This document shows, in pieces, positions 241 through 57,404 of a DNA stretch of 64,000 bases. Position 1 is the first letter of the stretch; every line of letters starts with the position of its first letter. The notes beneath the pieces are model-generated. The model made no database searches. It had not been told where the DNA came from and saw only the letters and a list, made by a program, of their open reading frames with translations. The translations under genes were made by a program, and so were the position numbers. Source of the DNA: Malacoraja senta. Taxonomy: Eukaryota. The stretch spans positions 24,306,001 through 24,370,000 of the forward strand of contig CM075989.1 in NCBI GenBank assembly GCA_038087875.1, given 5' to 3'.

Positions 241-780
241 CATGTCGATGCTGCTCGCGGCTAATAATGTTTAATGTCCGTGCCAAATCCTCACAATGTC
301 TACTTTGCAGGGCCTTTTATAGCCAGCCAACAAAGCAATTAACAAACTGTTACAGACAGTTTTAAATGCGAGAAGTTAGAAGGAGTAAGTGAGTTGCTGA
401 GTCTGCAGTTTTATAACTGAGATAAAGTTATAAAATGTGGACGTGAAGTAAATCAAAACCTTGCAAATCCAGATTAGCATTTATATTGGCACCGTTTCGT
501 TCAGAGTTCAAGAGACTGGTCCCTGCTATATAAACCTGTAAATCTGTAAATCAGACCCTATTAAAAACGTTTCACCAGAAAATAAATCAGGGTGGGTGTG
601 ACGGGGTTTGTCATGTTGCTGCTGGGCCATGCCCTGATGTCACTACAATCTCATCTACACCAGCGCCAACTTACAAAAGGCACAAGCATGATCTCCTAGC
701 ATTGGGAGCATTGCAGTGCCTCACCCTCTCTTCTTCCAGCACTGTGGCACCCAGCACTAAGGCAACATGTGTTTTGGTGA

Positions 781-1010
781 TAGACATAAAAAGCTGGAAT
801 AACTCAGCGGGACGGGCAGCATCTCTGCAGAGAAGGAATGGGTGACGTTTTGGGTTGAGACCCTTCTTCAGACTGATCAGGCTGAAGAAGGGTCTCGACC
901 CAAAACCTCATCCATTCCTTCTCTCCAGAGATGCTGCCTGTCCCGCTGAGTTCCTACAGCATTTTGTGTCTATCTTTGGTTTAAACCAGCATCTGCAGTT
1001 CCTTCCAACA
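781..1010. mobile_element. Penelope-terminal-derived inverted-repeat (hairpin) element
   Basis: Two inverted arms around cttcttcagac...gctgaagaag. Same sequence as the 3' terminus of the GIY-YIG fragment at 10340-10960. Confidence 0.75.
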
Positions 1011-1014
1011 CAAT

Positions 1015-2580: not shown

Positions 2581-5500
2581 TAGGCTAGTAATTCTTTGGG
2601 GTACATATCTTCAATTTCCAAAGCCGTTTTGTAATATAAGGAACAGTTTTCCACCACAGGAATGCCTTGCACTCAGACACACATGATGCATTTTGCCCAG
2701 CCTTTTCTGTTTATGTTGGACAAAGAGTTTTCCAGGAATGCAAAACGATTTTGTAAGTTGAGGTATTGGTGTGGAGCCAGTTATGTATTATTGTTTAGTG
2801 CAATAAACCGTTATGGTGTAGGAAATGGGTCAACAGATCGGAGACAGCAAGCTGCTAAATACAGTCATGGACAAGGGCGGACAGGGTGGTGCTGTTTCTC
2901 TATCCTCAGTGATATGAGTTGGGGATAATATGGATTTACAAATTCTGCTCAATTGTGTCCAATTTTAATGCTGCTCTGACCAACAGATATATCTTCCTTA
3001 CAGACTGTAGCAGAACATAATTACCTAATATGTTATTCTTTTTTTTTCATTAACATTTTCTCCCCGTTTAGATTTTTACTTGTGCTACAATCCAATGAGA
3101 CAGCCTTGCTTCATCAGCGGAGGTGCCTGTTTGCAAGGTGCTGATAGCTGAAAATCAACGTGATTTCAAACAAAGCTTCTAAACCACTCTCACAGTCCTC
3201 TTCCAGCAACTATTCCTAATGTCCCCTGCCTTCAGTGATGCAGGATCCGTCTAATTTGCCGTCATTCCGTCTCTGAATTAATGTACTGGTTTCCATGGAG
3301 ACGTCTTGTTGTGCCATTTCTGTTTTTGAAAATAAGCCAAAGTTGAGCTGACTCCTTGCACTTTGCCCAAGGCAGGAGAACTTCCATCTTTACTTGTGTT
3401 TTGTAATCTGCAGCTGCTTTTAACATTTGTAATTCCACCATCCACCTCAAATAACACAAGGTCCATGCTATTTATTTTGTAAATATTTTGGAGATCATTG
3501 AACATACAAACAAGTTATGCCTTTGTGAATCTCACTTCATGCTGTTAAACAAGTGTTGATCCCAACGATTCTGTCATTGATTTATGGTTTAGTTATTGGG
3601 TGCAGCAAAGAAGGATTAAGATTCCCATTCATCAAAATCGTTTCATCCATTCACGACTGGATCATTATCTTCACTGATCCTTTGTTCTTGCATTCCTTCA
3701 CTTATTACATTAATAACTATGGAATCCATTACTCATAATGCAAAAATACAATTCTTTATGAATGGCTCCCTCTTCCCCAAGAAAGAATCTTCATTAATTT
3801 ATCAAAGCTTCTATTGTGAGCTTTCAAAGACTAGAGCTCTACTGATTTCAACAGTAGGGCTGATGGTTTATTTTTGCCTGTATTATCTGCAGTATTTCCC
3901 TTTCCCTTCTGTGGCCCTGTGCCAAAGTTGATTAATTCTATAAAAGTCTCCAATGCTGTTTGCATTGGATCGATCTACCACATATTACAGTTTCTTGGGA
4001 CAAATATTTATGTTTCTGTAATCTGTTATTTTTCAGATAAAATGTCTGCACAAGTTATCAAAACATTCAGATATGATTCATACTTGATTTTATCTCACTG
4101 CATCTTTGACATATTTCTCTTAAAAATCGCGTAAATAGATATTGGGGTTTTTAACGTGTGCTGTTTAGATAGGGAGTTCATATCCTAACCAAATATGGAG
4201 CTTATCTGGTCTAATTGATCATGCTAGTCTGTGCAAATAAATGTATTTAGTAACTGGGTTTATGCGTACAAAGGAAATAATTGTGGAATATTGTTGATAA
4301 AATTGCAAACTACCAGTCCATAATGCATAGAACTTAGAATAGAAAAGAATTAGTAACATGAAACAGGATTTTCTAATAAAATCAAGTTAAATAGAGGTAG
4401 GAAACTATTCTCAGCAATGTCCTTATACAAGAATGCATGCTCTCATTCAGTTTCATTATCTGCAATTAAAATGAGGATGTTAACCTGTTTGCTTTGAAAG
4501 AGAGTAATATGACGTGCATGTGTTTAGAAGTTTCCAGTTCTAATTGCAAGTTGATCTCTGTTAAATTGTAAATATGTAGCGGGTCATTTTTCTCAGAAGG
4601 AAAATGAATGAATTACCCTGATTAAAGCTCTTTACGTGGCCTTAAGTTCTCTATAACCAATCATGTACCTGTTTAAAGATTAACTAACATAGCAATGTGG
4701 GAAGCACAACGGAGAAATGTTAATCATCTTGGTCTCACTAAGTCATTGATGAGTTTGTTTGTTTTTAGATGCAGCATGGTGAAATAATGTTCAGTTACGT
4801 TACTGGGTGAGCAGCCAAATATGTGGAGCATTGATCCAAGGAAATAAGTTCAAATCCCACCATGACATCTGAGCAAATAAATCCACATAATTAAGTATAT
4901 CTAGATTGTAATGCAGTCTCAGTAATTAAACCATTAGGTTGTTGTAAAAGCTAATGTGATTCACTAATATTCTGTGGAGAGGATATTTGCCTTGCCTCCC
5001 TGGTCTCGACTAAACACCACTCCAGACCCCAAGATACCAAAGATGTGCAGGTTTGCAGATTAATTGGCTTCTGTAAATTGTAGGATAGAACTAATGTACA
5101 GGTGATTGGTGGCTGGTGTGGACTTGGTGGGCTGAAGGGCCTGTTTTCCATGCTGTAGACTAGACTAAACTAGGACTAAACTAATCTCAACCCACCCATG
5201 GAGTTAATACGAACAGAAAATATTGGCGACACTCAGCAGGTAATGTACCATCTGAGAAAGAGAAACAGAAATAACATTTCACAGCCAAGACTGGTTCTTC
5301 CACCACAGGCTGAGTGTTCTCTGAAATTTCGGTTTTTATCTCAGATTTGCACCAGCTGCAGGTAATCTCTCACCAACTCAATGTGGTTTGTTCTTGGGAT
5401 TCTTCCAATTAGGGCTGGACCATAAATGACAGCATATCCAGCCATCCCCTGAATGCTTTGAACAGTGCTGATGAGATTCCAACCCAGCTAGGGTACAGCG

Positions 5501-5929
5501 GGATATTTTGGAGCTACTGAATCAAATATTTAAAATGGCATTTGCAACTAGACTGAATTTTGGCACAAGAGTGTTTTATTGTCATGTGTCCCAGATAGAA
5601 CAATGATATTCTTACTTGCAGCAGCACAACAGAATGTGTAAACATAGTACACTGTAAACACTATAATAAACGAGAGGGTTATTCAGGTAGGATAGGTATT
5701 TTGCATTCTGTATCGCCATGAATGGCTTGCACAAGGATATGATTATGTTCATGTTACTTGACTGTGAAGTAAAGATTCCAGATGTCCGCTGGCATCCCAA
5801 ATCATGGCTAAATCGGAAATGAAGCAGAAACGTTGTGAACAGTGGCAGACATGACCAAGTGGGAGCTGAAACTCACAACACATGTGCTGTGAGTTTGCTG
5901 TAATCCTCTCTGTTACTCAGCAGCCCACT

Positions 5930-6215
5930 TTAGTTTAGCTTAGAGATACTGCGCGGAAACAGGCTCTTCGTCTCAACGAGTCCGCACCGATCAGCGGTCC
6001 CAACACATTAACACCATTGACAATTTTACATTTATACCAAGCCAAATAACCTACAAACCTGTAAATCTTTGATATGTGGGAGGAAACTGAAGATCTCGGA
6101 GAAAACCCACGGGGAGAACGCACAAACTCTGTACAGACAGCACCCGTAGTCAGGATCGAACCCGGGTCTCTGGCGCTGTAAGGCAACAACTCTACCGCTG
6201 TGCCACCATGCCCCC
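5930..6215 (-). mobile_element. tRNA-derived V-SINE (HE1-like)
   Basis: A/B-box head (GGTTCGATCC), V-domain GGTTTCCTCCCAC, CR1-like tail with TAAAC repeats. Confidence 0.85.
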
Positions 6216-7506
6216 CTAAGTATTAGCAGTATTAAGAAGCAGCATTACCCTCAGAATCATCATGTTTTTCCAATATTTCTTATCCAACTTTTGCTGCATT
6301 TTGCTGCATTAATGGAAATCATAACTAACGATGTCCTCGGCATGCGACCTGTTAGCTCACACAATTACGTGGAGATTGTAGGGTCTCAGGAAGAAGGGGA
6401 AGTTGGCGATGAGGTTCATATTTAGCGGTTACTCGCGCTTCATTCAATGTTTTTGTAAGACAAGGAAGTGAAGGAAGAGGAGACTGGATAAAGGGTTGGT
6501 TGAGCATGGTTGAGATCAGGATACATTTCTTCACTCCGAGAGTGGTGCATCCTTGGAGTTCTCAAGTCAAGATGGTTGTGGAGTTTAGTCACTGAGTGTA
6601 TTCTACCATGGATCATTATGTCTCAGGTTATTGAAGCAATCGGAGAATTAGAGTTAGTGCAGGAAAGTGATTCTGAAGTAGAAGAATAGTTGTGACTGTA
6701 TTGCATTGTGGAGCAAGTCTACTCCAGCTCCTAAGTCTCATTATGTTCCATGGTGGAACGTGGAACTCTGGTTCCAACAGAGGGAGAGGACTGAACTTTG
6801 GTGTCTTCCCTCACAGTGGGAAATGCTGATTGCGCTGTGGGGGGGGGGGATGTTTTTTTATGTTATTATGTTACATTTTAAAGTGTTGAGTTATCTTATT
6901 TGTGTGCTGCATGGTAACTCAAATTTCACTGCACCAATTGGTGTATGGGTGACAATAAATGTCCTTTGTTCCATGGTGCACAGTTTTTCTCCTTTGTCCT
7001 AAGGGTCCATTTGAAAATTTGGAGGGATATGGGCCAAATGTTGGCAGGTGGGACCAGTATAGATGGGGCATGTTGGTCGGCATGGGCAGGTTGGGCCGAA
7101 GGGCCTGTTTCCATGCTATATGAGTTTATGATGCGAGTTGTGTGACTGCGCTGCTCTGGCTGTAGGTCAGCAGCAGTCGGGTCACTGCAGGTTTTTCATC
7201 AGCATCCAAATTATTTTTTTGTGTCGTCACTCCCAGTAAGTTATGCCAAAGGTGTTGTTCAGTGTGTTCTCATCCCAGTTACCAGTTCAGCTGCTAGAGG
7301 AGGTGGTTGAGGCAGGGACTAACACAACGTTAAAGAAACAGTTAGACAGGACAGGTTTGGTGGGATAGTGACCAAACGCAGGCAGGTGGGACTAGTGTAG
7401 ATGGGGCATCTTGGTTGGCATGGACATGTTGGCCGGTGTGGGCAGGTTGGGCCAAAGAGCCCATTTCCACACTGTAAGACTCGATGACCTTGTTTTATTC
7501 CACCAG

Positions 7507-7711
7507 TTGGGAGAGCAGCCCTTGGACTGCCTGTTCAATTTTCTGTGGAGGTGGCGTACAGACACGCAGTGTCAGCTGCATTGAAGAGAACATGTTTGGT
7601 GAAATTATCCCTGTGGAAGAGTGGAAATGCATGTACACCTTCAAACCTCCAGTGATACAGAACTGCAACCTGTTTGACTGCCCCAAATGGATCGCCATGG
7701 AATGGTCTCCA
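7507..7711 (+). CDS. ADAMTSL3: ADAMTSL3 exon, TSP1 repeat: WESSPWTACSIFCGGG...CNLFDCPKWIAMEWSP
   Basis: ccAG/GTAAGT. Lies in ORF 7484-7720. EEWKCMY and CNLFDCPKWIAMEWS motifs. Confidence 0.96.
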
Positions 7712-7824
7712 GTAAGTTGAACTTTATTTGGGTTTTATCCACACGAGACTGTGCTGGTTGTGTCAATCTCTAGTCTGAGATTTATTCCCGTTGGCATAAT
7801 TGAGACTCCGACTCTCAATAGTTG

Positions 7825-8200
7825 AGTCCAGTTTCAGTCTTGGCCACCATGTTACAGGAAAGATGTTGTCAAGCTGGAAAGGGCACAGAGAAGATTTACA
7901 AGGATGTTGCCAGGACTCGAGGGCCTGAGCTGAAGGGAGAGGTTGAGCACAATAGGACTTTATTTCTTGGAGCTCAGAAGGATGAGGAATGAAATTACAG
8001 AGGTGTACAAAATCATGAGAGGAATATATTGGATAAATGTCCAGAGTAGGGGAATCAAGAGCCAGAGGACACAGATTTAAGGTGAGGGGAAAAAGATCTA
8101 ATAGGGACCTGAGGGGTAACCTGTTTACCCAAAGCATGGTGGGTATATCGACTGAGCTGCCGGAGGAGGTAATTGAGGCAGTGCTATCACAAGTTGGGCT
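7825..8200 (+). mobile_element. Degenerate CR1-like LINE fragment
   Basis: ESRARGHRFKVRG...FTQ peptide in ORF 8037-8291. Confidence 0.75.
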
Positions 8201-8567
8201 GAAGTGCCTGTTTACATGCTCAATGGCTCTAAAAGACTATGACCAATATATACTGTTCATAAACAAGAAACTGTGTTTGAGTTTAAATTGAGTTTATTAT
8301 CATGTTTACCGAGGTACAGTGAAAAGCTTTTGTTGCATGCTATCCAGCAATTGAAAAGACAATACATGATTACATTCGAACCGTCCACAGTGTTCAGATA
8401 CAGGTTAAAGGGAATGATATGAATCACGTTTAGTGCAAGATGAAGTCCAATCGAAGATAGTCCGAGGGTCACCAATGAGGTAGATGGTAGCTCAGGACCG
8501 CTGTGTAGTAGTTGGTAGGATGGTTCAGTTGCCTGATGAGAGCTGACAGGACTGTGTTGTGTTGCAG

Positions 8568-8715
8568 TGTACAGTAAGCTGTGGTCGCGGCCTGCGCTAC
8601 AGGGTGGTCCTCTGTATCGACTACCGCGGCCAGCACACTGGGGGCTGTAACGCACAACTCAAGCCACACATCAAGGAGGAGTGCACCGTGCCAATCCCAT
8701 GTTATAAAACTAAAG
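8568..8715 (+). CDS. ADAMTSL3: ADAMTSL3 exon: CTVSCGRGLRYRVVLCIDYRGQHTGGCNAQLKPHIKEECTVPIPCYKTK
   Basis: gcAG/GTAACT, translated by hand, phase 0 to 1. Confidence 0.96.
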
Positions 8716-8754
8716 GTAACTGAAACATCTGTCCTGAACAAGCACCCCGACGCA

Positions 8755-9078
8755 AATCGCCACCTATCCATGTTCTCCACAGATGCTGCCTGACCCGCTG
8801 AGTTACTCCAGCACTCTGGGAAACGTCACCTATCCATGTTCCGGCAGCATCTATGGAGCGAAGGAAATAGGCAACGTTTCGGCCCGAAACCCGGAAGGGT
8901 TTCGGCCCGAAACGTTGCCTATTTCCCTCAGGGTTTCGGCCCGAAAGGTTGCCCATTTCCTTCGCTCCACAGATGCTGCCTGACCCGCTGAGTTACTCCA
9001 GCACTCTGTGAAACGTCACCTATCCATGTTCTCCAGAGATGCTGCCTGACCCGCTGAGTTACTCCAGCACTCTGTGTC
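8755..9078. repeat. Composite element: 66-bp Penelope-terminal units around a palindromic core (copy A)
   Basis: Units GAAACGTCACCTATCCATGTTCTCCACAGATGCTGCCTGACCCGCTGAGTTACTCCAGCACTCTGT. Core shared with 19985-20453. Confidence 0.8.
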
Positions 9079-10062
9079 TTTTCTCTAAGAAACAAAATAC
9101 AGACCTCACTGCCCATATGATGATCCATAATGGGCTAATTGTGAAGATTTATTTTTCCATTGGTAAGAATCGTGAAATATATGGAATTTGCAAACACGGA
9201 AATATAATCGCCTGCCCCCTTCATTCAACCAATTAATATAAATAACAAGGATCTGGATCACTGCTGGGATTCTGCTGATGATAAGCTGGCAATGAGTGAG
9301 TGCATCTTTCCCCCTTACGCCTCTCTCCTCTATCTGTGCAGACATGTATAGAAGATGATTTCAATGCCCTTTTAAATACTATTCACAAAGCCAGAACGAT
9401 TGTCATCTGTGGCCGTTCTCCTGATCCTGAGCTCTCTGTAAACTCCCAGCCTTCATCCATGTGCTGTCTTCAGTGATTCCCACGACTGATAATTACATCT
9501 ATATCTACAGTTGCCTTATCTCTCTGTCCCTCTCCCTGCCCTTGTTTAATGGAGTGATACTTTTAATTTTCCAATTCCAAGGCAGAATTCTCGCCCGGAA
9601 GACAGAAATACATCGGGTATATTTTTCAATTACATGAAAATGCCACAATATAATTGCTGAGACCCTGTCTTTATCTGTCAGATCCGGGAAATTATGGGGT
9701 TTGCATCCGACTTTACTGTTTTTAGCACAAGTTCAGAGGAGCAGCACTAAAGTTACTTTAATGAAACACTTGGGGACGGGTCGGAAAGTTCACCGTCAGT
9801 GTACAAACTTCAGAGGCCAGAAGGCGTCTCTGTCCCTGTCTCTGCAGACTGTGTTTATCCCAGAAGATTAAGGAATCACATTATCTCAGAAAATGGTTCC
9901 ACCACTTGTGTTTCCCTTTGATTTAAACCGCACAATAACATCCTGAAGACTTCACTTGGAGAACCAACATGTTTAAACCAACAGAAAGGAATTCTTCATT
10001 CAATAGTGCAATCTAACCTTTTTGTTTTGAATGAATTTGGACACCTATTGGTTTAATGTGTA

Positions 10063-10096: not shown

Positions 10097-10181
10097 AAAA
10101 ACTTCCTGTGGAAGCTAAAGTCCCTTGGATTAAGCAAGCGCAGGAAATGGTGGAAACGATCTCAGTGTCCGAGGAGCCAAA
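10097..10181 (+). CDS. ADAMTSL3: ADAMTSL3 exon: EKLPVEAKVPWIKQAQEMVETISVSEEP(K)
   Basis: ccAG/GTGAGT, phase 1 to 2. Matches the EKxPVEAKxPWxKQAQE linker. Confidence 0.95.
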
Positions 10182-10339
10182 GTGAGTTCAAGGGTTTTCA
10201 TTTTCACATTACGCTTATTGTGAAATTTGTTTTAATTGTGCCGTGTCCTTGCCTGTCACAATAAAGGGATCATGTTGCCTCATCCATTGAACTGCTGTTT
10301 GTGTTATGTTCTTAGCTCTATAAACATTGTTTTTATTTC

Positions 10340-10960
10340 AATGCTCCCTCCGTAACTCCCTGGTCAATTTGTCCCTTCCCACCTGAACCACCCCCTCTCC
10401 GGGCACTTTCCCTTGCAACTGCAAAAATGCCACACTTGTCGCTTTACCTCCCCCCTTGACTCCATTCAAGGACCCAAGCAGTCTTTCCAGGTGCGGCAGA
10501 GGTTCACCTGCATCTCCTCCAACCTCATCTATTGCATCCGCTGCTCTAGATGTCAGCTGCTCTACATCGGTGAGACCAAGCGTAGGCTTGGCGATCACTT
10601 TGCCCAACACCTCCGCTCAGTCTGCAATAACCAACCTGATCTCCCGGTGGCTCAGCACTTCAACTCCCCCTCCCATTCCCAATCCGACCTTTCTAACCAT
10701 GGCCAGAGTGAGAACATTGACTTCTCTAATTTCAGGTAGTCCTTACATTCTCCTCCCCTTCTCAGCTCTCCCTCAGCCCACTGGCTCCTCCTCTTCCATT
10801 CTTCCTCCTGTCCCCCCACCCTCACATCAGCCTGAAGAAGGGTTTCGACCCGAAACGTTGCCTATTTCCTTCGCTCCATAGATGCTGCCTCACCCGCTGA
10901 GTTTCTCCAGCATTTGTGTCTACCTTCGATTTTCCAGCATCTGCAGTTCCTTCTTGAACA
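10340..10960 (+). mobile_element. Penelope-like element 3' fragment: GIY-YIG endonuclease remnant plus terminal repeat
   Basis: ORF 10413-10739 with NLIYCIRCSRCQLLYIGETKRRLGDHFAQHL..PVAQHFN (GIY-YIG with CxxC), followed by the terminal repeat. Confidence 0.88.
10829..10863 (+). ncRNA. Minimal type I hammerhead ribozyme motif in the Penelope terminus (putative)
   Basis: CTGAAGA-A-GGGT(TTCG)ACCC-GAAA-CGTT. Core boxes and stem II are present, stems I and III are minimal. Confidence 0.6.
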
Positions 10961-11599
10961 CGGTACTAATCTCCATCAGCAGGCTAATGGTCTACCTGTC
11001 TCCTTATTGAAACAGACCAAGGCATCATTCATAATCAGTGCAGAGGCTGAACCAGGGAGTGTTGATTAAAATAGTCAGTTCAGTTTCAAATCAGCACAAA
11101 AATAAATTGTAAAGGGATTGGGATAAAGAATCGGATAAGAGGAAGACTGGAGAAGCCAAGAAAACCAAAGTTAAACCTTGAAGAATAATGCCAAAGAAAT
11201 GAAATATTGTCATTGCTTCAGATCATTTTTAGTGTCAGAGAGATAGTTTGGCATTTATTAAGATATATTGTGATATTAAAAATGCCGTGAGATTGAGATG
11301 GGCAAGCTGTACGTATGTGTTGCAGTTTGAGTCTGTATCTTTGATATCAGGCAGTGACATTTGATTGGTGAGTCAGACAGCGTGTCGCCAAATGAATGCA
11401 GCTTGTTCAGGGCAGGTTATCTTGACTGCTCACGGCCAGATTCCTTTGTTTAACTGCACATGAGGTCTGAATCAGGCTGAGTTGCACACAAATAGTGACC
11501 ACTTTGCCTCCCCATTTGCTCCATAAGGCAGCGCATTGCCACACTGGCCGTCTGTTGGTGATCTGAGCCTGGTCATTACACACAAGGTTTACATTCATT

Positions 11600-11903
11600 T
11601 TATTAGAGATACAGTGCGGAAACAGGCCTTTCAGCCCATCGAGCCCACGCTGACTTGCTATCCTTGCACACTAATGCTGTTCTACACGCACTTGGGACAT
11701 TTTTACAATTTTACAGAAGCCAATTAACCTAAAAACCTGCATGTCTTTGGAGTGTGGGAGGAAACCGGAGCACCCGGAGAAAACCCACGCAGGTCACGGG
11801 GAAAGCGTACAAACTCCGTACTGACAGCACCCGTAGTCAGGATGGAACCCGGGTCTCTGGTGCTGTGAGGCAGCAACTCTACCGCTGTGCCACCCTGCCG
11901 CCT
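11600..11903 (-). mobile_element. V-SINE (HE1-like)
   Basis: Full head, V-domain and tail on the minus strand. Confidence 0.85.
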
Positions 11904-12640
11904 GAGGTCTGAGAAGATTTCAGTAACAAGCCCACAGCATATCCTTCTCTCTGCAACTGGATCTGAGCTGTTATTTTCCCCAGAATACTCTTCATCTCCA
12001 TTTCAGATGCATATTTTTCACCTTAGTACTTTAGAAACATAGAGTCATATAGCACGGAAACAGGTCCTTCAGCCCAGCTTGTCCATGCCAACCAAGATGC
12101 CCCATCTAAGCTAGTCCCATTTACCTGTGTTTGGCCCAAATCCCTCTCAACCTTCCCTATCCAAGTGCCTTTTAAATAATGGGATAGTCCCTGCCTCAAC
12201 TACCTGCTCAGACAGCTCATTCCATACACGCACCATCCACCGTGTGATAAAGTTATCCCTCGGATTTGATGAAACCTTCCCCCTCTCTCCTTTAACCTAT
12301 ATCCAGTTGGAGTTCTTTGCCACAGACGTCTATGGAGGCCAAGTCATTGGGTATTTTTAAAGCGGATTAGTAAGGGCGTCAAAGGTTACGGGGAGAAGGC
12401 GGGAGAATGGGGTAGAGAGGAAAAGATTGATCAGCCATGATAGACCAGCATTCACCTGAAGGTCGACACTGGAGTGCTGGAGTAACTCAGCGGGACAGGC
12501 AGCGTCTCTGGAGAGGAGGAATGGGTGACGTTTCGGGTTGAGACCCTTCTCCAGACTTCTTGCATTCACCCTATATGTTCCCCTCATGATATACAGCACA
12601 TACATATATACTATACACTATACATTATATACACATACAC

Positions 12641-12777
12641 CTCTTCTTCTTGCATGTGGCGTGGACAGCCTAAAGTTGTGGGACAACTTGTTCTATTTGA
12701 TATTTGATTTTGCACGCCAGGTTGATTGCATTCGTTGAAACAGGGCGGACCATGTGAAGGTGCAATCTCCCACCGCG
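12641..12777 (-). mobile_element. Short non-autonomous element sharing its 3' tail with the Ingi/Vingi-like LINE at 17821
   Basis: Tail AGGCTGTCCACGCCACATGCAAGAAGAAG is similar to AGGCTGTGCACGCCGTACGCAAGAAG. Flanked by CACATACAC repeats. Confidence 0.55.
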
Positions 12778-13140
12778 CACATACACATTATACACATACA
12801 TAGTATACACTGCACATTATATTGTATATACATTATATACACATACACTATACACGGTAGATCATATAATACACACAGTTTATACATATACTCTATACAC
12901 CTTGCATTATATACATTGTTTACATATACACTATACATTATATGTTATATACGTGTGCATTAGACACTATACATTATATATTATATACATTAAACACATA
13001 CATTATACATTGCACATTATATATATATATTATATAATAAATACTATACACAGTACATTATGTACAGATACACTATACTATGCATTATATATCATATACG
13101 TTATATACACACATACTATACATTGTATACATTTCCACAC
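12778..13140. repeat. Degenerate TA/CA low-complexity tract abutting the exon 13149 acceptor
   Basis: Read directly. Confidence 0.85.
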
Positions 13141-13148
13141 CTGCACAG

Positions 13149-13447
13149 GTTTATTCCTGAGGCCTGGTCACAGTGCAGCGCCTCGTGTGGGCATGGCCTG
13201 CAAGTGCGGAGTGTGACGTGCCGCATTCTCCTATCCTTCTCCCAAACGGAGGAAGAGTTGCCGGATGAGGAGTGCGAGGAGGAGAAGCCGCCCAGCGAGC
13301 GAGCGTGCTACCTGGCGCCGTGTGACGGCACGACGGCTGCACGTGGCCCAGAGGTGGCCTACAATAACCAGCGTGACAACGCAATGGACGAACAGTTTGA
13401 CTGGGAATACGAAGGCTTCACCCCCTGCACAGCCACCTGCTTAACAG
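13149..13447 (+). CDS. ADAMTSL3: ADAMTSL3 exon, TSP1: FIPEAWSQCSASCGHG...DWEYEGFTPCTATCLT
   Basis: acAG/GTATTA. Lies in ORF 13060-13647, phase 2 to 1. Confidence 0.95.
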
Positions 13448-13856: not shown

Positions 13857-13985
13857 TAGTTGCGTGCTAACCAGTCAGCGGAAAAACACAATACATGATT
13901 ACAATCAACCTATTTACAGTGTACAGATACATGATAAGGGAATAACATTTAGTGCATGGTAAAGTTGATCAAGGATAGTCTAAGG

Positions 13986-14195
13986 TAGACAAAAATGCTG
14001 GAGAAACTCAGCGGATGAGGCAGCATCTATAGAGCGAAGGAATAGGTGACGTTTCGGGTCGAGACCCTTCTTCAGACTGGTCTTGACCCAAAACGTCACC
14101 TATTTCCTTCGCTCCATAGATGCTGCCTCACCCGCTGAGTTTCTCCAGCATTTTTGTCTATCTTCGATTTTTCCAGCATCTGCAGTTCTTTCTAA
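13986..14195. mobile_element. Penelope-terminal hairpin element with target-site duplication
   Basis: Inverted arms. Flanked by AAGGATAGTCTAAGG (13971-13985) and AAGGATAGTCCAAGG (14196-14210). Intact hammerhead core on the minus strand at about 14047-14075. Confidence 0.8.
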
Positions 14196-14366
14196 AAGGA
14201 TAGTCCAAGGGTCACCAAAGCGGTAGATAGCAGTTCAGCACACTGCTCGCTATGGTGTGGTTGGATGATTCAGTTGCCTGATAACAGCTGCGAAGAAACC
14301 TCTTGTAACAATAACAAAAATGGTTCGATGCACAAAATGACGAAGGGTCACCAAACTGAAACCGTA

Positions 14367-16544: not shown

Positions 16545-17820
16545 GTATGTTGTTTCTGGAGTCCAGCAAACTTTAAATCGCTTTTATTCTTTGTATTTCA
16601 AACGTTGTGTTCTTAATCAAATAGGAAATGTATTCAATTAAATTTAGCTTAGTTTAGAGATACAGCGCGGAAACAGGCCCTTCGGCCCACCAAGTCCGTG
16701 TCAGCCAGCGATCCCCGCACACTAATGCTATCCTACACACACACTAGGGACTTTTTTTTAAACAATATTACCAAGCCAATTAGCCTACAAGTCTTTGGAG
16801 TGTGGGAGGAAAGTGGATAGGCAGCATGGGCAAGATGGGCTGCAGGGCTGCTGTTTCCATGCTGTATGACTCTATGACACCTTGATAGTGAACATTGTCC
16901 TCCCTGGGGTTCTATCTGGTTCGCTGCTTTATGGAGATATATGCCTTAGACCCGAGGCAACCATATTGGTGGGTGTCACAGTGTTGAACGTGAGGATGAT
17001 AATTGTGGACTGCAGGAGAACATAGGCTGGCACATTTTCCAGAGAAGTAGAGGAAGTCATTTAATACAGAGAAGTGTGAAGTGATGCACTTTGACAGAAA
17101 GGATGTGTAGAAACAATATAGGTTCAATGGCATAGTTTTCTAAAGGGCAAGAGGGACTTGGGTGTACATGTACATAAATCTTTGGAATTGGCAGGGGATG
17201 TGGAGAGTGTGGTTGGTAAAATATATGGGGTCTGGGGATTTATAAATGAAGACACAAAGCAAGGGGGTCATGTTGAATTTGCACCAAACACATCAGGTCA
17301 CCACTGGAGCACAGCATCCACTTCTCACCCAACTTCAGGAAGAACATAGAGGCCTTACGGAGAACGCAGGAAAGATTTCATAGAATATTTCAAGAGTTGA
17401 GAGATTTTAGCTGTGAAATTAGAATTGAGAAGCAGGGGAGGTGATCGCTGGACAAAGACGTATGAAAGTCTGAAGAAGGGTCTCGACCTGAAACGTCACC
17501 CATTCCTTCTCTCCAGAGATGCTGCCTGTCCCGCTGAGTTACTCCAGCATTTTGTGTCTATCTTCGTATGAGCGGACATATTGATAGAGGTGGAGCAGGT
17601 AGACACAAAAAGTTGAGTAACTCAGCGGGTCAGACAGCATCCCTGGAGAGAAGGAATGGGTGATGTTTTGGGTCGAGACCCTTCTTCAGACTGAGAGTCA
17701 GGGAAAGGGAAATGAGAGATATAGACGGTGATGTGGAGAGATATTGAACAAATGAATGAAAGATAGGCAAAAAAGTAACAATGATAATGGAAACAGGCCA
17801 TTGCTCGCTCTGGGCTAGGT

Positions 17821-18176: not shown

Positions 18177-19984
18177 TGAGCTAGGTGAAAATGAATTACA
18201 GACAATGAGACTCAACAAGACGACCTGGGTGAGGGAGGGACGGAGAGAGGGGGTGCATGGGGGGGAGATCATGGCTGGTTTACATGGGATGAATGGAGGG
18301 AAGCTGGCCCCATCAGCAGCATTTCTAGAATCGGGGGAACATATTTGGGGTAACACATACAAACACACAACTTTTTTTATATCTAAAAAGTAATTGTGAA
18401 GTGGATGTCATTGCTTTTAGAGATGCTGGATGCAGAAGCAATCAAAAGTATTATTAAAGGATTTTTTAAAAACAATTCAGAGAACAATTTTCAGGGACAG
18501 AGCACAGGAAAGCACTCAATGGGCCTGCTCTTCTAAATGCTAGCACGGATTCGACGGGCCAAGTGGCTCCTTCTATGATGTATTAATTCAATGATTGTAT
18601 GGATTAGCTTGTGGGAAATAAAGTTAGTTATTTACACAAACAATCCCAGGAGACAGGCGTGAATGCTGTCACAGGGCACACCATCTTTAATGCACTGGTT
18701 AAGTACTCTCCAGTAACTCATTTCTATTGCTTGCCAAGAATTTCAGCTCCATTAGGATAAATAATCAAACTCCACTCTCAAGAAAATGTCGAGATGAATT
18801 TACTTTCTTTTCAAACAAAAGTTGCTTCTTTCCACGATTTCCCACACGAACAGTTCATATAACATTTCAACAGTAAATTCCCAGAAGTACAAACTATGTT
18901 GACCAAATTATTAAAACATTTTTATGAGGAATCCCATCAATTTATCTAAGACTGTCCACGTATCGCTATTGGCAGCTCGCATATCTAAGTTTTTAATTCA
19001 GTACGTTATTAAATATATTGCTTTGAATTCTCCTGTTGAAGCAGAGAATTGCTATTTGTCTTCAGAATGTGAATTTTGAAAGAAATCATTTTTGTAAACT
19101 TCAGTTTAGTTTATTGTCACGTGTACAGTCAAAAGCTGCTTTTGTTGCGTGCTAACCAGTCAGCAGAAAGACAATACATGATTACAATCGACCCATTTAC
19201 TGAGTGCAGATACATGATAAAGGAATAACGTTTAGTGCAAGGTAAAGCCAGCAAAGTCCACTCAAGGATAGTCCCAGGGTCATCAAGACGTAGATAGATG
19301 CAAGTCCTCTGAATTCACAATGGTGGAGGTGTTAAAACAATTTCATAAAGTGTTATTCAAGTGCATTGCAAGTTACCTGTGTCTCTGGAATTCAAAAGGT
19401 CGTCATGAAATGGAGGGTGACAGTCTTACTTCCAGGGAAGGGGATCAGACAATAGAGGGCGTAAGATGAAGGTGAGAGGGGAAAGATTTATAAGGGAACC
19501 ACGGAGCAACTTCCTCACACAGATGGTGATGCATGCGTGGAACGTGCTGCCCGAGAAAGAGGTCGAGGTGGGTACCGTAACAACATGTGTAGGAAGGAAC
19601 TGAAGGGGCTGGTTTACACTGAAGATGGACACAAAATGCTAGAGTAACTCAGCGGGACAAGCAGCATCTCTGGAGAGAAGGAATGGGTGACGTTTCAGGT
19701 CAAGACCCTTCTTCAGACGTATTAAAGACATTAGGTCATGTACAAGGATAGGAAAAGTTTAGAGGTATAGAGAGACACCAGGAACGAATTGGCTTCGGTA
19801 AAATTGTGAGGTGTCCCTAGTGTTTAGGATAGTGCTAATGTATGAGGTGATCGCTGGTTGGCGCGGACTCGGTGGGCAAAAGGGCCCATTTCCATGCTCT
19901 AAAGGAAAGTCTAAAAAGTGCTCGTGACTCTCTGTAGCATGAGGCGACGGTTGTTGGGAACAACCGTTCAACCCATCTAGAGGC

Positions 19985-20453
19985 TTCCAACCCAAAACAT
20001 CACCTATCCATGTTCTCCACAGATGCTGCCTGACCCGCTGAGTTACTCCAGCACTCTGTGAAACATCACCAATCCATGTTCTCCCGAGATGCTGCCTGAC
20101 CCGCTGAGTTACTCCAGCACTCTGTGAAACGTCACCTATCCATGTTCCGGCAGCATCTATGGAGCGAAGGAAATAGGCAACGTTTCGGCCCGAAACCCTT
20201 CCGGGTTTCGGCCCGAAACGTTGCCTATTTCCTTCAGGGTTTCGGCCCGAAAGGTTGCCCATTTCCTTCGCTCCACAGATGCTGCCTGACCCGCTGAGTT
20301 ACTCCAGCACTCTGTGAAACGTCACCTATCCATGTTCTCCACAGATGCTGCCTGACCCGCTGAGTTACTCCAGCACTCTGTGAAACGTCACCTATCCATG
20401 TTCTCCACAGATGCTGCCTGACCCACTGAGTTACTCCAGCACTTTGTGTCTAC
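19985..20453. repeat. Composite 66-bp-unit/palindrome element (copy B)
   Basis: Same architecture and orientation as 8755-9078, with more units. Confidence 0.8.
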
Positions 20454-20632
20454 CCACGTTGCAGACACAGAGGAGCAGGCGGTGACTGTGAAGAACAATT
20501 AAGATCGAGGATGAATTGGTGCTCTGTGGTTTTGAAGGAATTTTATAAACTATTGTTTTTCATTTCAGACATTAAATGAGGGGATTTAGTGAGGATTTAA
20601 TCACGTAGATTTGAAACTAAAAGTTCTACATT

Positions 20633-23553: not shown

Positions 23554-24534
23554 ATAAATGACTCTGAGCTAGTGGTTGAAGGTGGAATGTTGGCCTGGGT
23601 ATAGGTGAGTAATTCCATAGCAACTCTAATCTTCTAATAAATTATCAGAACAAAGGGATGAAAAGTGATATTCCCATTCTTGTTCGCTGGCACGGAGCTG
23701 CACCCAGCAAGACATTTATATGCATCTCTGAAATTTGGACGGCCATATAATGGTCGGCAGCAGCCCACCAGATTGAATATTTTCCCACAAAATATGTGTG
23801 TTGGAGAGGTAAGAGACTACAGATGCTGGAACCTTGAGTAGGGTCAGGCAGCACCCGTGGAGGGAATGAACAGGCGATCGTTTAGGTCGGGACCTGAATT
23901 CAGACTCAACATGCTTAGTTTAGTTTGGACGTGGAGCCTAGACACAAGCACTTTGGCCCAACAGGTTTGCACCGACCATCATTTACCCGTAGATAGACAC
24001 AAAATGCTGGAGTAACTCAGCAGGGCAGGCAGCATCTCTGGATAGAAGGAATAGGGTGACGTTTCGGGTCGAGACCCTTCTTCAGACAATTACCTGTACA
24101 CTAGTTCCATCCTACACACTAGGGACAATTTACAGAAGACAAATAACCTACGATCCTGCACGTCTTTGGAAGGTGGAAGGAAACCGGAGGAAACCAGAGC
24201 ACCCGCAGAAAACCCATGTGTCGCAGGGAGAAGGTACAAACTCCATACAGACAGCACCCGCAGTCAGGATCGAACCTGGGTCTCTGGCAGTTATAAGGCA
24301 GCAACTCTACCGCTGTGTATTTGTGAACTGGAGAATTGAAAGAGCAGAGACTGTTATATTAAGTTGCATTAATATAACATCCGACACAACCTCAGAAAAT
24401 TCTAAACCACTTTACAGCCAATTAAAAGGAGAATAATATAGAGACATGTGAGCTATTTAAAGCAGAGCAAGATCCCAGATATGGCAATGTAATTAAGACC
24501 AGATTCATTGTTTCTGACTTTAGCTGAGAAGTAA

Positions 24535-25527
24535 CTATTTACAATATACATCAATGATTTGGATGAAGGGATTCAAAGTAACATTAGCAAATTTTCAGAT
24601 GACACAAAGCTGGGTGGTAGTGTGAACTGTGAGGAGGATGCTATGAGAGTGCAGGGTGACTTGGACAGGTTGGGGGAGTGGGCAGATGCATGGTAGATGA
24701 ATTTTAATGCGGATAAATGTGAGGTTCTCCACTTTGGTAGCAAAAACAGGAAGGCAGATTACTATCTAAATGGCGTCAAGTTGGGAAAAGGGGAAGTACA
24801 ACAGGATCTGGGGGTCCTTGTACATCAGTCTATGAAAGTAAGCATGCAGGTACAGCAGGCAGTGAAGAAAGCGAATGGCATGTTAGCCTTTATAATAAGA
24901 GGAGTTGAGTATAGGAGCAAAGAGGTCCTTCTGCAGTTGTACAGAGCCCTAGTGAGACCACACCTGGAGTATTGTGTACAGTTTTGGTCCCCTAATTTGA
25001 GGAAGGACATTCTTGCTATTGAGGGAGTGCAGCGTAAGTTTACAAGGTTAATTCCCGGGATGGCGGGACTGTCATATGCCGAGAGAATGGAGCAGCTGGG
25101 CTTGTACACTCTGGAGTTTAGGATGAGTGGGGATCTCATTGAAACATATAAGATTGTTAAGGGTTTGGACACGCTAGAGGCAGGAAACATGTTCCCGATG
25201 TTGGGGGAGTCTAGAGCCAGGGGCCACAGTTTAAGAATAAGGAGTAAGCCATTTAGAACGGAGACGAGGAAACACTTTTTCTCACAGAGAGTGGTGAGTC
25301 TGTGGAATTCTCTGCCTCAGAGGGCGGTGGAGGCAGGTTCTCTGGATGCTTTCAAGAGAGAGCTAGATAGGGCTCTTAAAAATAGCGGAGTCAGGGGATA
25401 TGGGGAGAAGGCAGGAACGGGGTACTGATTGGAGATGATCAGCCATGATCACATTGAATGGCGGTGCTGGCTCGAAGGGCTGAATGGCCCACTCCTGCAC
25501 CTATTGTCTATTGTCTATTGTCTATTG
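24535..25527 (+). mobile_element. CR1-like LINE, 5'-truncated, about 1 kb, covering the RT C-terminal region
   Basis: FSDDTKLGG motif and ORF 24697-25428 (LYRALVRPHLEYCVQFWSP...RGHSLRI...FSQRVV), ending in (CTATTGT)n. Confidence 0.95.
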
Positions 25528-26487: not shown

Positions 26488-26923
26488 AAGTCAGATGCAG
26501 CCAGTTGCATCAATGAGTTACGATTTTGTCAATGCTCATGAGACAGATGACAAATGTATCAGGAGTGATGGGAAGGGTTTGTGCATTTCACCTTGAGCTC
26601 AGCCAACTAATGCAGTGTGACTTCCTGCGTTGTTACACGACTACATGTGAAGTGGGCATTACTCTTACACCCATTCATGAATGATCTGATGACAATGGTT
26701 GTTCAGTCTATCGTTCAATGGTTGTAAGGCATTAGCACACTCTGTGAGAGTTATAGCGTCATACAGCATGGAAACAGGCCCTTCGGCCCAACTGGCCCAT
26801 GCTCATTAACATGCCCCATTTACACTCGTCTCAGTGTTTAGCCCATATCCCTCCAAACCTATCCTATCCATGTACTTGTCCAAATATTTTGTAAACATTG
26901 TGATCGTACCTGTCTCAACTACC

Positions 26924-29844: not shown

Positions 29845-30105
29845 GGAACTGCAAATGCTGGTTTATACCGAAGATGGACACAACATGCTGGAGTAACTCA
29901 GCGGTCCAGGCAGCATCTCTGGAGGAAAAGGATGTGATGTTTTGGGTTGGAACCCTGCTTCAGACTGAAAGTCGAGGGGTTTCACCGCCCCCACCCCCAC
30001 CCCTATTTTCAGTGTGAAGAAGTGTTCCAAATATAAAGGTCACTCATCCATTTTCTCCAGAGGTGCTGCCTAAACCGCTGTGTTACTCCAGAGCTTTGTG
30101 TCTAC
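29845..30105. mobile_element. Degenerate Penelope-terminal hairpin element
   Basis: Inverted arms of the GCTGGAGTAACTCAGC family. Confidence 0.65.
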
Positions 30106-46368: not shown

Positions 46369-47387
46369 TTCCCTGTCTTTCAGTGAATGACTGATAGATC
46401 TTTAATGACAGCCACGAATATGTGGCTTTGTGTAATTGTAGGAAAGTTTGTGAAATCAGATGTTTATTGTACATCTGTGAGTCTGAAGAAGGTTTCAACC
46501 CGAAACGTTGCCTATTTCCTTCGCTCCATAGATGCTGCCTCACCCGCTGAGTTTCTCCAGCATTTTTGTCTACCTTTGTTTATTGCACATGCTAGAATGT
46601 AAACGTGGAGAAGGTTATCCACTGTCATTTTACAAAGTTATCAGAGCAACTTGTTTCCACCATCTATAGCCTTTAGTAAATATTGTAGCATGAATTATTG
46701 GAGTCAGCAATAAAGGATCCGAGTTATCTTCTACTTAGAAGTATCTTGTCATCGAAGTCTGCCTTCAGATTAAACACCATGTTGGTGAGTGTGGTTTGTA
46801 AAGCCCCTCTCCCCTGACTCTCAGTCTGAAGAAGAATCTCAAACCGAAACATCACCTATTCCTTCTCTCCAGAGACGCTGCCTGTCCCGCTGAGTTACTC
46901 CAGCTTTTTGTGTCTGTCTTCGGTTTAAACCAGCATCTGCATCTTCCTATTCTTCAATGTGAGCATCCATTTGGGTGATGAGCAATAGATAAAGCTTGGA
47001 AAGTTTTGTAAAAGGATTGAAGTTAATTCAATTGATTGACATTTGCCCCAGGTGTGTAGGATAGAACTAGTGTACAGGTGATCAGTGTGAACTCGGTGAG
47101 CCGAAGGGCCTGTTTCCATGCTGTATATATAAATCTAAAAAAGCTAAAACTAAGGCAGATGGCTGTGGACTCCAGTTGCACTATCACTTGGGTCATGAGT
47201 AGAACACAAGATTCACACAGGGAGGGAGTGTAATACACAGAGGCCACCGTGGCACAGCTTTAGTAGGAACATGTGGAACTAAGGCCCAGTCCTCGGAGTG
47301 TTCAATATTCTAAAGTCCTTTTTACAACAAGATGTTCCTCAGAGACACAGGAAATGCAGATTCTGGAATCTTGCACAGAAGACAAAG

Positions 47388-49042: not shown

Positions 49043-50514
49043 CAGTATCTATGGCATGTGCCAATTCTATAGAGTTCACCTGAATGCTGCAAATATTGCA
49101 TTTCAATACAGCTGGACATGAATTTAGTTAAACTCCTGTTATTTTTGTAAGAATTACCATCACTATTATCTAAGTGAACACAGCTGTGGTGACTCTCTGC
49201 TGGTTTTAAGTTGGAATAGTTCTAATCAGAGCTGGAAGCTTTTGTTACAGCTATTACAAGGAAGACAGGTATACTCTGCATGTACGCAAGTCCTAAAGTC
49301 ATAGAATCACAGAATGGAAACTTCAGGCCACACTAGCCCATGCCAACCAACATGCCTCACTTACAGTGGACACAAGATGCTGGAGTAACTCAGTGGGACA
49401 GGCCGCATCTCTGGAGAGAAGGAATGGGCGACGTTTCAGGTCGAGAATAAATCTTTAATGATTCCCGTTTTCCAGGACCCCGTTCCTTCATCTCTACTAT
49501 GGACGTTCAGTCAATAAAATTCTGCTCCATGCCCCACCTACGCTAGTCTCACCTGCCTGCATTTGGCCCATATCCCACTAAACCTGTCCTATCCACGTAT
49601 GTTTCTTAAACGTTGCAACAGTGCCTTGTCGTCAGTTCCTTGCATCGGCAACACAAGAACAATTAGAGAAGGTCACAAAAGAAAAGTATCAGCGCGAGAA
49701 AGTGCCCTCAAATTATATCTTTTTGAAACGTGTTTAAAATGTTTACTTTTCTTGTCCTTCATGAGTTTCATATGTGAATAAACGCAGTCTGGCGTGCTGC
49801 AGCCAACAAGGTCACAGTGAGAACTGTAGACCATCATTCTTTCATTGAAGTATGCAGCAAACTCTGACCTACACACCAGTAACCTGTACAGTATCCTAGG
49901 AATCTGCTAGCTAAATATTTGGGTCTGTCCAATATTGGCATATCCTCACGTGTACAGATTAAAAGCAACAATATTCATTACAGTAATATTTGGATATAAT
50001 CCAACATAGTAAATTGACTTTGCTAATAAAAACCTGGATATCCATTCAAAATGAATCAAGTAATTGAGCTGTTTTATTTTCCATGGTGGATACATGCGAA
50101 GTTTCACATACCTGTATCCAAGCCTAGCAATGACTAAGAGAGATATTTAGCAAGCCCTTGCATCATTTTTATGGCAATGATATGTTTAGCAAGTTCTGTA
50201 ATTTATGTGGAAGATAGACGCAACATAACTCAGTGGGACACGTGGGACGGGATAGTCTGAAGAAGGGTCTCAACCCGAAACGTCACCCATCCCTTCTCTC
50301 CAGAGATGCTGCCTGTCCCGATGAGTTACTCCAGCACTTTGTGTCTATCTGCAGCATCTGCAGTTCCTTCCTATACAGTGTCATTTATTTTGCCTGAAGT
50401 TGTAATGTTGTGTTTTATCTTCAAACCAAGAATGAATAATTCAGTTTGTTGAGGTGGACAGTTTTCATTTTCTTTTTCATAATCTTTTTGTGATATTATC
50501 ATTTGTTTATTTCC

Positions 50515-51189
<675 letters not shown>

Positions 51190-56734: not shown

Positions 56735-57404
56735 AAGTGCCTGTCCCACTTGGCTGTCTTTCGCGCGCCATTTACGCGACCTGCTAGCGTGTGGGTAGAG
56801 CGTGGGTAGCGCGTGGGTAATGCGTGGGTAGCGCGGGGATGGGCGCATGGAGTGGTGTGGAGGAGTGTGGACTTGGTCCTGCAAGAAATCGTCGCGCGCC
56901 ACCGGCCTGTCGCGTAACTGATGGCCAAAGTGGGACAGACCCAAGACCCTGGCGCGACGCAATGTCTCACCTCCAACAGCAGCAGAAGCAGGCTAAAGAT
57001 CGTCGAACTCAGCCTGGGGCTCACGGCCATTGCGGATCCGGATCTGCCCCCACTCCTATTCCCAGAGCGGGGCCAAGAATATTGAAGATGGACACAAAAT
57101 GCTGGAGTAACTCAGCGGGACCGGCAGCATCTCTGGAGAGAAGGGATGGGTGACGTTTCGGGTCAAGACCCTTCTTTCAGACTGAAGAAGAGTCTCGACC
57201 CGAAACGTCATCCATTGCTTCTCTCCAGAGATGCTGCCAGTCCCGCTAAGTTACTCCTGCATTTTGCGTCCATCTTCAAATGACGTCACGCGCTCCAGAC
57301 GGCTGTGCGGGCGCATGCAGTGACGCGCGACTCTCGCGGGACCGCCGTGCGACCGTCACTACCGGCCTGTCGCGGAAGTGACGGCCCAAGTGGGACAGGC
57401 CCTT
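56735..57404. mobile_element. Composite TA-flanked MITE containing a Penelope-terminal hairpin (57082-57278)
   Basis: TA|AAGTGCCTGTCCCACTTGG ... CCAAGTGGGACAGGCCCTT|TA. Internal copy of the right end at about 56901-56942. Confidence 0.8.

What the first reader, a model, noticed from the sequence alone, without database searches (positions are those of the whole stretch)
10829..10863. Minimal hammerhead-ribozyme cores scattered through the ADAMTSL3 introns via Penelope termini
Seen: the motif CTGAAGA-A-GGGT(N4)ACCC-GAAA-CGT(C/T) directly follows the GIY-YIG remnant. It recurs with intact core boxes on the sense strand (starting 10832, 17470, 46483, 50257, 57182; some with stem II mismatches) and on the antisense strand (about 14047-14075 and 24057-24085), plus many decayed copies. 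Established: Penelope-like element termini carry minimal type I hammerheads with a palindromic, almost absent stem III that are reported to cleave as dimers. Inference: several sense copies in one pre-mRNA could dimerise in cis and cut intronic RNA. Caveats: stem I is only about 2 bp by eye and there is an extra A after CUGAAGA.
Basis: partly seen in the sequence, partly recalled or inferred. Interest (0 to 1): 0.7.

Follow-up and report, generated by a model that had tools for sequence, protein, structure and literature searches.

The report
Penelope-type minimal hammerheads in skate introns
The motif is a real copy of the small self-cutting-RNA signature carried by Penelope-like jumping genes, a known kind, and here it belongs to a very abundant skate repeat whose intronic copies look like decaying leftovers rather than a device that cuts the ADAMTSL3 transcript.

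Summary
Observation confirmed: 10830-10861 (+) fits the published minimal hammerhead of Penelope-like elements (PLEs); the 'extra A' is a diagnostic feature, not a defect. It ends a 5'-truncated, internally deleted Neptune-type PLE in an intron of skate ADAMTSL3. The window holds 56 fragments of this repeat, 27 with a whole core, 4 strictly intact (2 sense, 39 kb and six exons apart, with mismatched helix I arms). Cis-dimer cleavage of the host pre-mRNA is not supported: no strand bias (12+/15-), no significant excess core conservation among young copies, catalytic G12 lost by CpG decay in 4 of 16, active fold predicted at under 0.001, and antisense copies nearby offer far stronger duplexes. 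Published relatives are inactive as monomers, weak as dimers, and one needs the element's protein. Side result: most copies are about 100 or 130 nt, often flanked by target-site duplications, and start just 5' of the core at an initiator-like site rather than at the cleavage site, so their templates were uncut. No cleavage or RNA-end data could be obtained. The scan noted this kind of motif before in two shark genomes. New member of a known kind; low interest.

The parts
10830..10861 (+). Minimal type I hammerhead: helix I 10830-31 with 10860-61 (2 bp), CUGAAGA 10832-38, extra A 10839, stem II 10840-43 with 10848-51, GAAA 10852-55, palindromic CG 10856-57, U16.1 10858, U17 10859; predicted cut between 10859 and 10860
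   Evidence: consensus in PMC4209133 Fig. S3
10350..10960 (+). 5'-truncated Neptune-type Penelope-like element copy (ends approximate), subfamily B
   Evidence: depth steps (bins 10336-10369 and 10948-10981)
10425..10694 (+). Broken GIY-YIG endonuclease remnant; frameshift just upstream, internal deletion near 10694-10712
   Evidence: Pfam PF01541 E 0.0016, below cut-off; 59/90 identical to P0125, which has RT and GIY-YIG hits; loose ends at 10694 and 10712
10862..10960 (+). pLTR sequence 3' of the hammerhead, including the optional tail of about 30 nt
   Evidence: bimodal 3' ends, none between +101 and +115 among 51 BLAST hits
10097..10182 (+). ADAMTSL3 exon upstream of the insertion
   Evidence: 26/28 identical to P0001 538-565; AG and GT ends
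13147..13447 (+). ADAMTSL3 exon downstream of the insertion (ends approximate)
50255..50286 (+). Second strictly intact sense core, subfamily A, solo copy
14046..14077 (-). Strictly intact antisense core, in a head-to-head inverted pair
24056..24087 (-). Strictly intact antisense core, solo copy with a 9-bp target-site duplication (1 mismatch)
17467..17564 (+). Solo sense copy, boxes intact but G10.1-U11.1; 7-bp duplication; tail-to-tail with an antisense copy 30 nt away
46480..46576 (+). Solo sense copy, subfamily B, 1-nt deletion in stem II; 14-bp duplication (1 mismatch)
57079..57300 (.). Head-to-head inverted pair; the sense copy (57182) has no helix I and a stem II mismatch
12455..12557 (-). 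Antisense solo copy in the same intron as 10832 (A6G, dead core); 9-bp duplication; predicted 89-pair duplex with the 10832 copy

Best explanation
The motif is the minimal hammerhead of a Neptune-type Penelope-like retrotransposon family that has littered this skate genome with short pLTR copies. It was kept in the active source elements, where it serves the element's own RNA cycle, probably as a dimer and with help from the element's protein (inferred from relatives). The copies in ADAMTSL3 introns are insertion products (shown: duplications, two tail lengths, inverted pairs) that decay without selection (shown within the window's small sample) and do not cut the host pre-mRNA to a degree that matters (inferred).
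For: All features of the published consensus are met. The upstream remnant is 66% identical to an RT plus GIY-YIG protein with a CX4CxxC linker. 56 fragments cover 5,225 of 64,000 bases; 95,000-128,000 contigs were laid on 1 kb in each of three runs. Strand 12+/15-, p=0.70; strictly or nearly intact 3+/3-; solo copies 7+/9-. Young copies: G12 lost in 4 of 16, the same as the loop CpG G (4 of 16); core vs tail p=0.19. Across subfamilies the core is more conserved than the tail (9/250 vs 137/1300, permutation p=0.008), as expected if selection acted on source elements. Active-ready fold below 0.001 in 5 of 5 copies; double-hammerhead docking -0.3 to +3.5 kcal/mol at 37 C. Sense-antisense duplexes -111 to -171 kcal/mol vs about -28 for sense-sense controls. 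Literature: monomer inactive and dimer weak; Anolis PLE hammerhead cleaves only with the PLE protein and no RNA-seq reads end at its site; 1 of 9 Xenopus dimer elements cleaved.
Against: No cleavage assay and no RNA-end data: all 24 runs listed were contigs. The sample is 16-27 copies of one locus, so modest selection or strand bias would be missed; the core was about half as variable as the tail in young copies, only not significantly. Copies were partly found by core match, which inflates core conservation. The folding model ignores Mg2+, tertiary contacts and proteins, and I ran no known active minimal hammerhead as control. The 10832 copy has the stronger C-G/G-C helix I, where 88% of summed depth in run X19 has T at 10831, and its 3' junction is shared with organisms F and G (table 8), so it has persisted. 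One copy (62365) starts exactly at the cleavage position.
Confidence: 0.8

Rival explanations
1. One reading: sense copies in one pre-mRNA pair through their ACGU palindromes, form double hammerheads in cis and cut intronic RNA.
For: Two strictly intact sense cores exist; dimer cleavage is reported for this class; docking turns slightly favourable at 10 C for pairs with 10832 (-2.1 to -2.9 kcal/mol); intronic ribozymes that affect a host transcript exist (CPEB3, search listing only).
Against: The two intact sense cores are 39 kb and six exons apart, and one of their two helices I cannot form. The only same-intron sense pair with intact boxes and palindrome (46483, 50257; 3.7 kb) includes a stem II deletion. 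Each sense copy tested (10832, 17470, 46483, 50257) has an antisense copy 30-2,300 nt away. No strand bias, neutral-looking decay.
Confidence: 0.03
2. Copies are inert alone but are cut when the PLE protein is expressed (for example in germ line), which refolds or dimerises them in cis or trans, so host transcripts are occasionally cleaved.
For: Protein-assisted cleavage is shown for the Anolis element. Copies keep the region 3' of the core, where that element's protein is thought to bind (inferred by analogy). Density is high: 27 cores in 64 kb.
Against: No selection signal in strand or decay; no intact PLE ORF in the window; no in vivo ends were seen even for the Anolis element.
Confidence: 0.07
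3. In this family the motif is no longer catalytic even in source elements and is kept as part of an internal promoter or protein-binding signal.
For: Helix I is only U-A or U-G plus G-C in most copies, weaker than the six published 2-bp cases, which are all G-C. An initiator-like sequence overlaps the 5' arm (motif recalled). Copies come from uncut templates. PLE clades without hammerheads thrive.
Against: Subfamily differences inside the motif (loop II, 11.4 A/G, 17 C/U, 1.1 A/G) all keep pairing or the NUH rule, and the core is more conserved than the tail across subfamilies.
Confidence: 0.1

Closest known systems
Minimal hammerheads (min-HHR) in pLTRs of metazoan Penelope-like elements (Cervera and De la Pena 2014, PMC4209133)
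   Same: CUGANGAH, G10.1-C11.1, GAAA, palindromic 15.2-16.2, NUH, no helix III, position 3' of a GIY-YIG ORF, mostly solo copies, some opposite-strand pairs.
   Different: No cartilaginous fish among the 56 rows of Fig. S3; stem II is 4 bp and helix I 2 bp with a U-A or U-G pair, at the weak end of the published range; density here is far above the 4,000-9,000 per genome reported for coelacanth and Xenopus, if the window is typical.
Poseidon element PAc of Anolis carolinensis (Frangieh 2024, PMC11167929)
   Same: Hammerhead in the pLTR, two 3' ends separated by a tail of 30-40 nt, insertion from uncut RNA.
   Different: This remnant has the Neptune-type zinc-finger-like linker; no ATG at stem II; no biochemistry here.
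Non-LTR retrozymes (Cervera 2020, PMC7229834; Li 2026, bioRxiv 10.64898/2026.07.22.740005)
   Same: PLE-related short repeats with type I hammerheads, many monomers.
   Different: Retrozymes are tandem arrays with a whole hammerhead per unit; the 66-bp arrays here lack the CUGA box and whole cores are solo or inverted.
Conserved intronic host ribozymes (amniote HH9/HH10, CPEB3; names partly recalled)
   Same: Ribozyme motif inside an intron on the sense strand.
   Different: Those are single, conserved, monomer-competent; no Rfam hammerhead model matched here at E up to 5 or 10.

Membership tests
PLE minimal hammerhead (min-HHR) | C3-U4-G5-A6-N7-G8-A9 and G12-A13-A14-A15.1 boxes, U16.1-H17 | tested here: met
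   10832-10859
PLE minimal hammerhead (min-HHR) | Unpaired nucleotide between 9 and 10.1; G10.1-C11.1 pair | tested here: met
   A10839; G10840-C10851; feature list
PLE minimal hammerhead (min-HHR) | No helix III; palindromic 15.2-16.2 | tested here: met
   CG at 10856-57
PLE minimal hammerhead (min-HHR) | Helix I of about 3 bp (published range 2-6) | tested here: met
   2 bp, lower limit; 6 of 56 published rows have 2 bp
PLE minimal hammerhead (min-HHR) | Compensatory changes within the family | tested here: inconclusive
   3 two-sided changes in 161 cells, 16-22 of 500 shuffles as high, slid control equal; RNAalifold predicts no pair
PLE minimal hammerhead (min-HHR) | Self-cleavage as dimer or with protein | not testable with these tools
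   no assay; no raw RNA reads offered
Penelope-like element (EN+, Neptune clade) | C-terminal GIY-YIG endonuclease fused to RT | tested here: met
   remnant 66% identical to P0125 with RT and GIY-YIG hits; RT part itself absent from this truncated copy
Penelope-like element (EN+, Neptune clade) | CX2-5CxxC linker between RT and EN | tested here: met
   present in P0125 and P0123; in the window split over two frames; clade rule, which also assigns it to Nematis; no tree built
Penelope-like element (EN+, Neptune clade) | 5' truncation, inverted pLTRs, optional 30-40 bp tail often on one end only | tested here: met
   7 head-to-head pairs, long tail on one side only in 6 of 7 (read); bimodal 3' ends
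Non-LTR retrozyme | Tandem units each with a complete hammerhead | tested here: not met
   66-bp arrays start at the GAAA box and lack CUGA
Canonical hammerhead (Rfam families) | Match to an Rfam hammerhead model; stable helix III or 6-bp helix I with loop contact | tested here: not met
   no hammerhead family among 52 matches or 6 matches
Host-exapted intronic ribozyme | Conservation of the core at the orthologous site across species | not testable with these tools
   contigs of relatives show only the shared 3' junction

The most novel reading that the evidence does not exclude
The short copies are a fossil record of the element's RNA: transcription starts at the A of an initiator-like TCAGTCT that overlaps the hammerhead's 5' arm, reverse transcription starts at one of two internal sites about 100 or 130 nt downstream, and runs off the uncut 5' end, giving masses of 'strong-stop-like' insertions that begin three bases before the core. 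This would tie the hammerhead to the promoter and show that cut RNA is almost never the template, which bears on the open question of what PLE hammerheads are for.
Probability: 0.3. Interest if true: 0.5.

Novelty: new member of a known kind. Interest (0 to 1): 0.2.

Why it matters
As it stands it extends a known ribozyme-transposon association to a skate and shows that hammerhead-like hits in elasmobranch introns are repeat copies, to be masked before any search for host ribozymes. If host transcripts were cut, a repeat present every few kilobases would be a transcriptome-wide hazard or regulator, but nothing here points that way. The fixed 5' end is the more useful lead: with very many copies, a skate genome allows a direct count of cut versus uncut templates and of strand bias.

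Tried and rejected
Rfam: no hammerhead family on the whole window or on 10780-10920; expected for a motif without helix III, so not counted against identity. No whole genome is held, so copy number, genome-wide strand bias and ortholog tests were not possible. Exact-pattern scans of metagenome and viral contigs found 0 loci. Run search: no RNA holder listed and no raw reads; run X1 is only guessed to be RNA and was not used as evidence of expression. Table 6 (molecule ends) was empty and cannot show RNA ends from contigs. A compensatory U-A to C-G change in helix I was considered and rejected: C at 10831 is a minority letter and occurs in one window copy. The upstream-similarity test is insensitive between subfamilies. 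A 43-codon open frame through the motif is within chance. A splice-acceptor reading of the 5' boundary was considered; solo copies share no upstream exon sequence. Luense 2017 could not be read; supplements of Li 2026 were not seen and may list this family; the supplement search of Frangieh 2024 returned nothing.

Full report
Observation. The motif lies at 10832-10858 on the + strand. A 27-letter pattern finds 20 copies with up to 3 mismatches, against 0 in each of 100 shuffles. A profile built from 21 window copies finds 56 fragments that cover 5,225 of 64,000 bases. I took 27 of the 56 as bearing a whole core; the other 29 are truncated or tandem pieces without the CUGA box. The host gene is ADAMTSL3 on the + strand: its large exon is 94% identical to the protein of the skate Rhinoraja longicauda and 84% to a sawfish. 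Exons were mapped; the motif is in the intron 10183-13146.

What the motif is. In hammerhead numbering the copy has both catalytic boxes, one extra A, a 4-bp stem II closed by G10.1-C11.1, a palindromic CG in place of helix III, a GUU triplet and a 2-bp helix I. This is the consensus of minimal hammerheads of Penelope-like elements in Cervera and De la Pena 2014 (PMC4209133; I read parts 1-3 of 4 of the text and parts 1-2 of 3 of the supplement). By my count 54 of the 56 rows of its Fig. S3 have the extra nucleotide and 6 have a 2-bp helix I, all G-C; none is a cartilaginous fish. Rfam gives no hammerhead match.

The element. Upstream lies a broken GIY-YIG remnant (Pfam E 0.0016, below cut-off). 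It has 23 relatives among 35 candidates, many from sharks and rays, and is 59/90 identical to P0125, which carries RT and GIY-YIG hits and a CX4CxxC linker. Craig 2021 (PMC8557442, passages) assigns that linker to the Neptune and Nematis clades, and Li 2026 (bioRxiv, parts 1-3 of 5) found Neptune and Poseidon in vertebrates, so Neptune is the likely clade; I built no tree. Contigs of relatives show loose ends at 10694 and 10712, an internal deletion in this copy. Other PLE hallmarks are present: seven head-to-head inverted pairs, with the long tail on one side only in six (read), and two classes of 3' end, with none between +101 and +115 among 51 BLAST hits. In three runs 95,000-128,000 contigs were laid on this 1 kb, with summed depth of 8-31 million on the pLTR against 6-65 on the flanks; the tool warns that this is no copy number, but the repeat is clearly very abundant.

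Test of cis cleavage. (a) Intactness: 6 of 27 cores pass all pairing tests, and two of these have G-U at 10.1-11.1, leaving 10832 and 50257 (+) and 14049 and 24059 (-). The sense pair is 39 kb and six exons apart, and one of its two helices I cannot form. (b) Strand: 12 sense and 15 antisense, p=0.70; without the 11 members of inverted pairs, 7 and 9, p=0.80. (c) Decay: in 16 copies of the young subfamily, non-CpG core positions differ from the majority in 5 of 160 cells against 49 of 832 in the tail (p=0.19; position permutation p=0.16). G12, the general base (recalled role), sits in a CpG and is lost in 4 of 16, as often as the loop CpG G. With 25 copies of all subfamilies (two very divergent ones left out) the core is more conserved, 9/250 against 137/1300 (permutation p=0.008); this fits selection on source elements but is inflated because copies were found by their cores. 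(d) Covariation: 3 two-sided changes in 161 cells, matched by a slid control; no consensus pair predicted. (e) Folding: with 100 nt from the core start, the chance that stem II forms with both boxes free prints as 0.000 for 5 of 5 copies, because the first box pairs with a pyrimidine stretch of the tail or an alternative hairpin takes the GAAA box; docking two hairpins into a double hammerhead is worth -0.3 to +3.5 kcal/mol at 37 C and -2.9 to +1.4 at 10 C, before any cost for distance. The model omits Mg2+, tertiary contacts and proteins, and I ran no active control. (f) Competition: each of the four sense copies tested has an antisense copy 30-2,300 nt away in the same intron, with duplexes of -111 to -171 kcal/mol against about -28 for sense-sense controls.

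What the literature adds. Cervera 2014 found no cleavage of a monomer and low cleavage of dimers and trimers. Frangieh 2024 (PMC11167929, parts 1-2 of 4) found that the Anolis PLE hammerhead cleaves only with the element's protein, that uncut RNA is the main template, that reverse transcription starts at two internal sites which explain the tail, and that no RNA-seq reads end at the cleavage site. Li 2026 saw cleavage in 1 of 9 Xenopus dimer elements, and reports retrozymes depleted in introns, which is a point for a cost of genic insertion in tandem forms. Luense 2017 I saw only as a title and through a review (PMC6765202, passages). I found no paper on this skate family in searches; one search was swamped by shark terms, the library lacks most subscription journals and Repbase, and the unseen supplements of Li 2026, which included one chondrichthyan, may list it.

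A side result. Of the 27 cores, about six keep element-like sequence further upstream (10832, 17663, 29937, 30009, 34815, 46826; 31699 unclear); the rest lose it within about 9 nt of C3 (the test is weak between subfamilies). Among 10 solo copies, 6 have a target-site duplication of 7-14 bp at the expected ends, against 4 of 90 mismatched flank pairs and 11 of 300 random flanks (search ranges were set after a first look, and one of the six is a low-complexity match). In the five clear cases the element begins at AGT (four) or GT (one) after 1-5 extra letters. In all four runs laid, position 10832 is among the best-supported loose ends (339, 630, 671 and 42 contigs) with unrelated A-rich letters followed by AGT, and no row at 10860 is listed; the table was cut (2,845 rows not shown) and the minority C at 10831 may favour clipping there. 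One window copy, 62365, does begin exactly at position 1.1. Longer copies read TCAGTCT across this boundary, which fits the initiator consensus YYANWYY with its A three bases before C3 (consensus recalled; it matches 1.1% of window positions; noticed after the fact). Penelope has an internal promoter in its pLTR (PMC2377424, passages), but there the start is further upstream of the ribozyme. A rival cause is self-priming at the near-palindrome at this spot, as proposed for rotifer PLE junctions (PMC3846280, passages). Shown: the copies keep the whole core, so their templates were not cut. Inferred: that the boundary is a transcription start.

Verdict. A real PLE minimal hammerhead and a new member of a known kind; the intronic copies are best read as inert debris (0.8). 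Cis-dimer cutting of ADAMTSL3 RNA is unlikely (0.03) and untested at the bench. Two earlier reports of this scan reached a like reading for shark genomes; they are AI notes, seen after my reading was set, and are not counted as support. Interest 0.2.

Noticed in passing
window 8734-9089 (+), 19981-20465 (+), 52026-52403 (-): Arrays of a 66-bp unit of the same repeat that starts at the GAAA box and lacks CUGA; the first two share an inner inverted piece of subfamily B, suggesting a separately amplified composite element.
   Followed up: partly
window 768-1014, 13949-14203, 29838-30120, 35604-35845, 40548-40744, 48820-49044, 57079-57300; 17466-17694: Inverted pairs that would give hairpins of up to about 100 bp in the pre-mRNA (possible editing or small-RNA substrates); several drew weak Rfam microRNA matches.
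   Followed up: partly
window 62365-62467 (+): One copy starts exactly at hammerhead position 1.1, as a cDNA of a cut RNA would; no clear duplication.
   Followed up: partly
window 35154-35240 (-) with copy 34815: Second, more decayed GIY-YIG C-terminal remnant of another subfamily, with a different sequence between ORF and hammerhead shared with copy 17663.
   Followed up: partly
window 24697-25425, 26904-27359, 47640-48152 (+): Open frames resembling C-terminal parts of CR1-type and L2-type LINE proteins (labels recalled, not searched).
   Followed up: no
window 32804-34159: Tandem array of 76 bp, 17.9 copies, 97% matches.
   Followed up: no
window 50500-51200 and 12760-13100: Long mixed CA/TA microsatellite tracts; source of the top Rfam microRNA matches.
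   Followed up: no
window 10848: In run X19, 64% of summed depth has G here (U-G in stem II), as in the composite arrays; subfamily B's loop also allows a 6-bp alternative hairpin over the GAAA box.
   Followed up: partly
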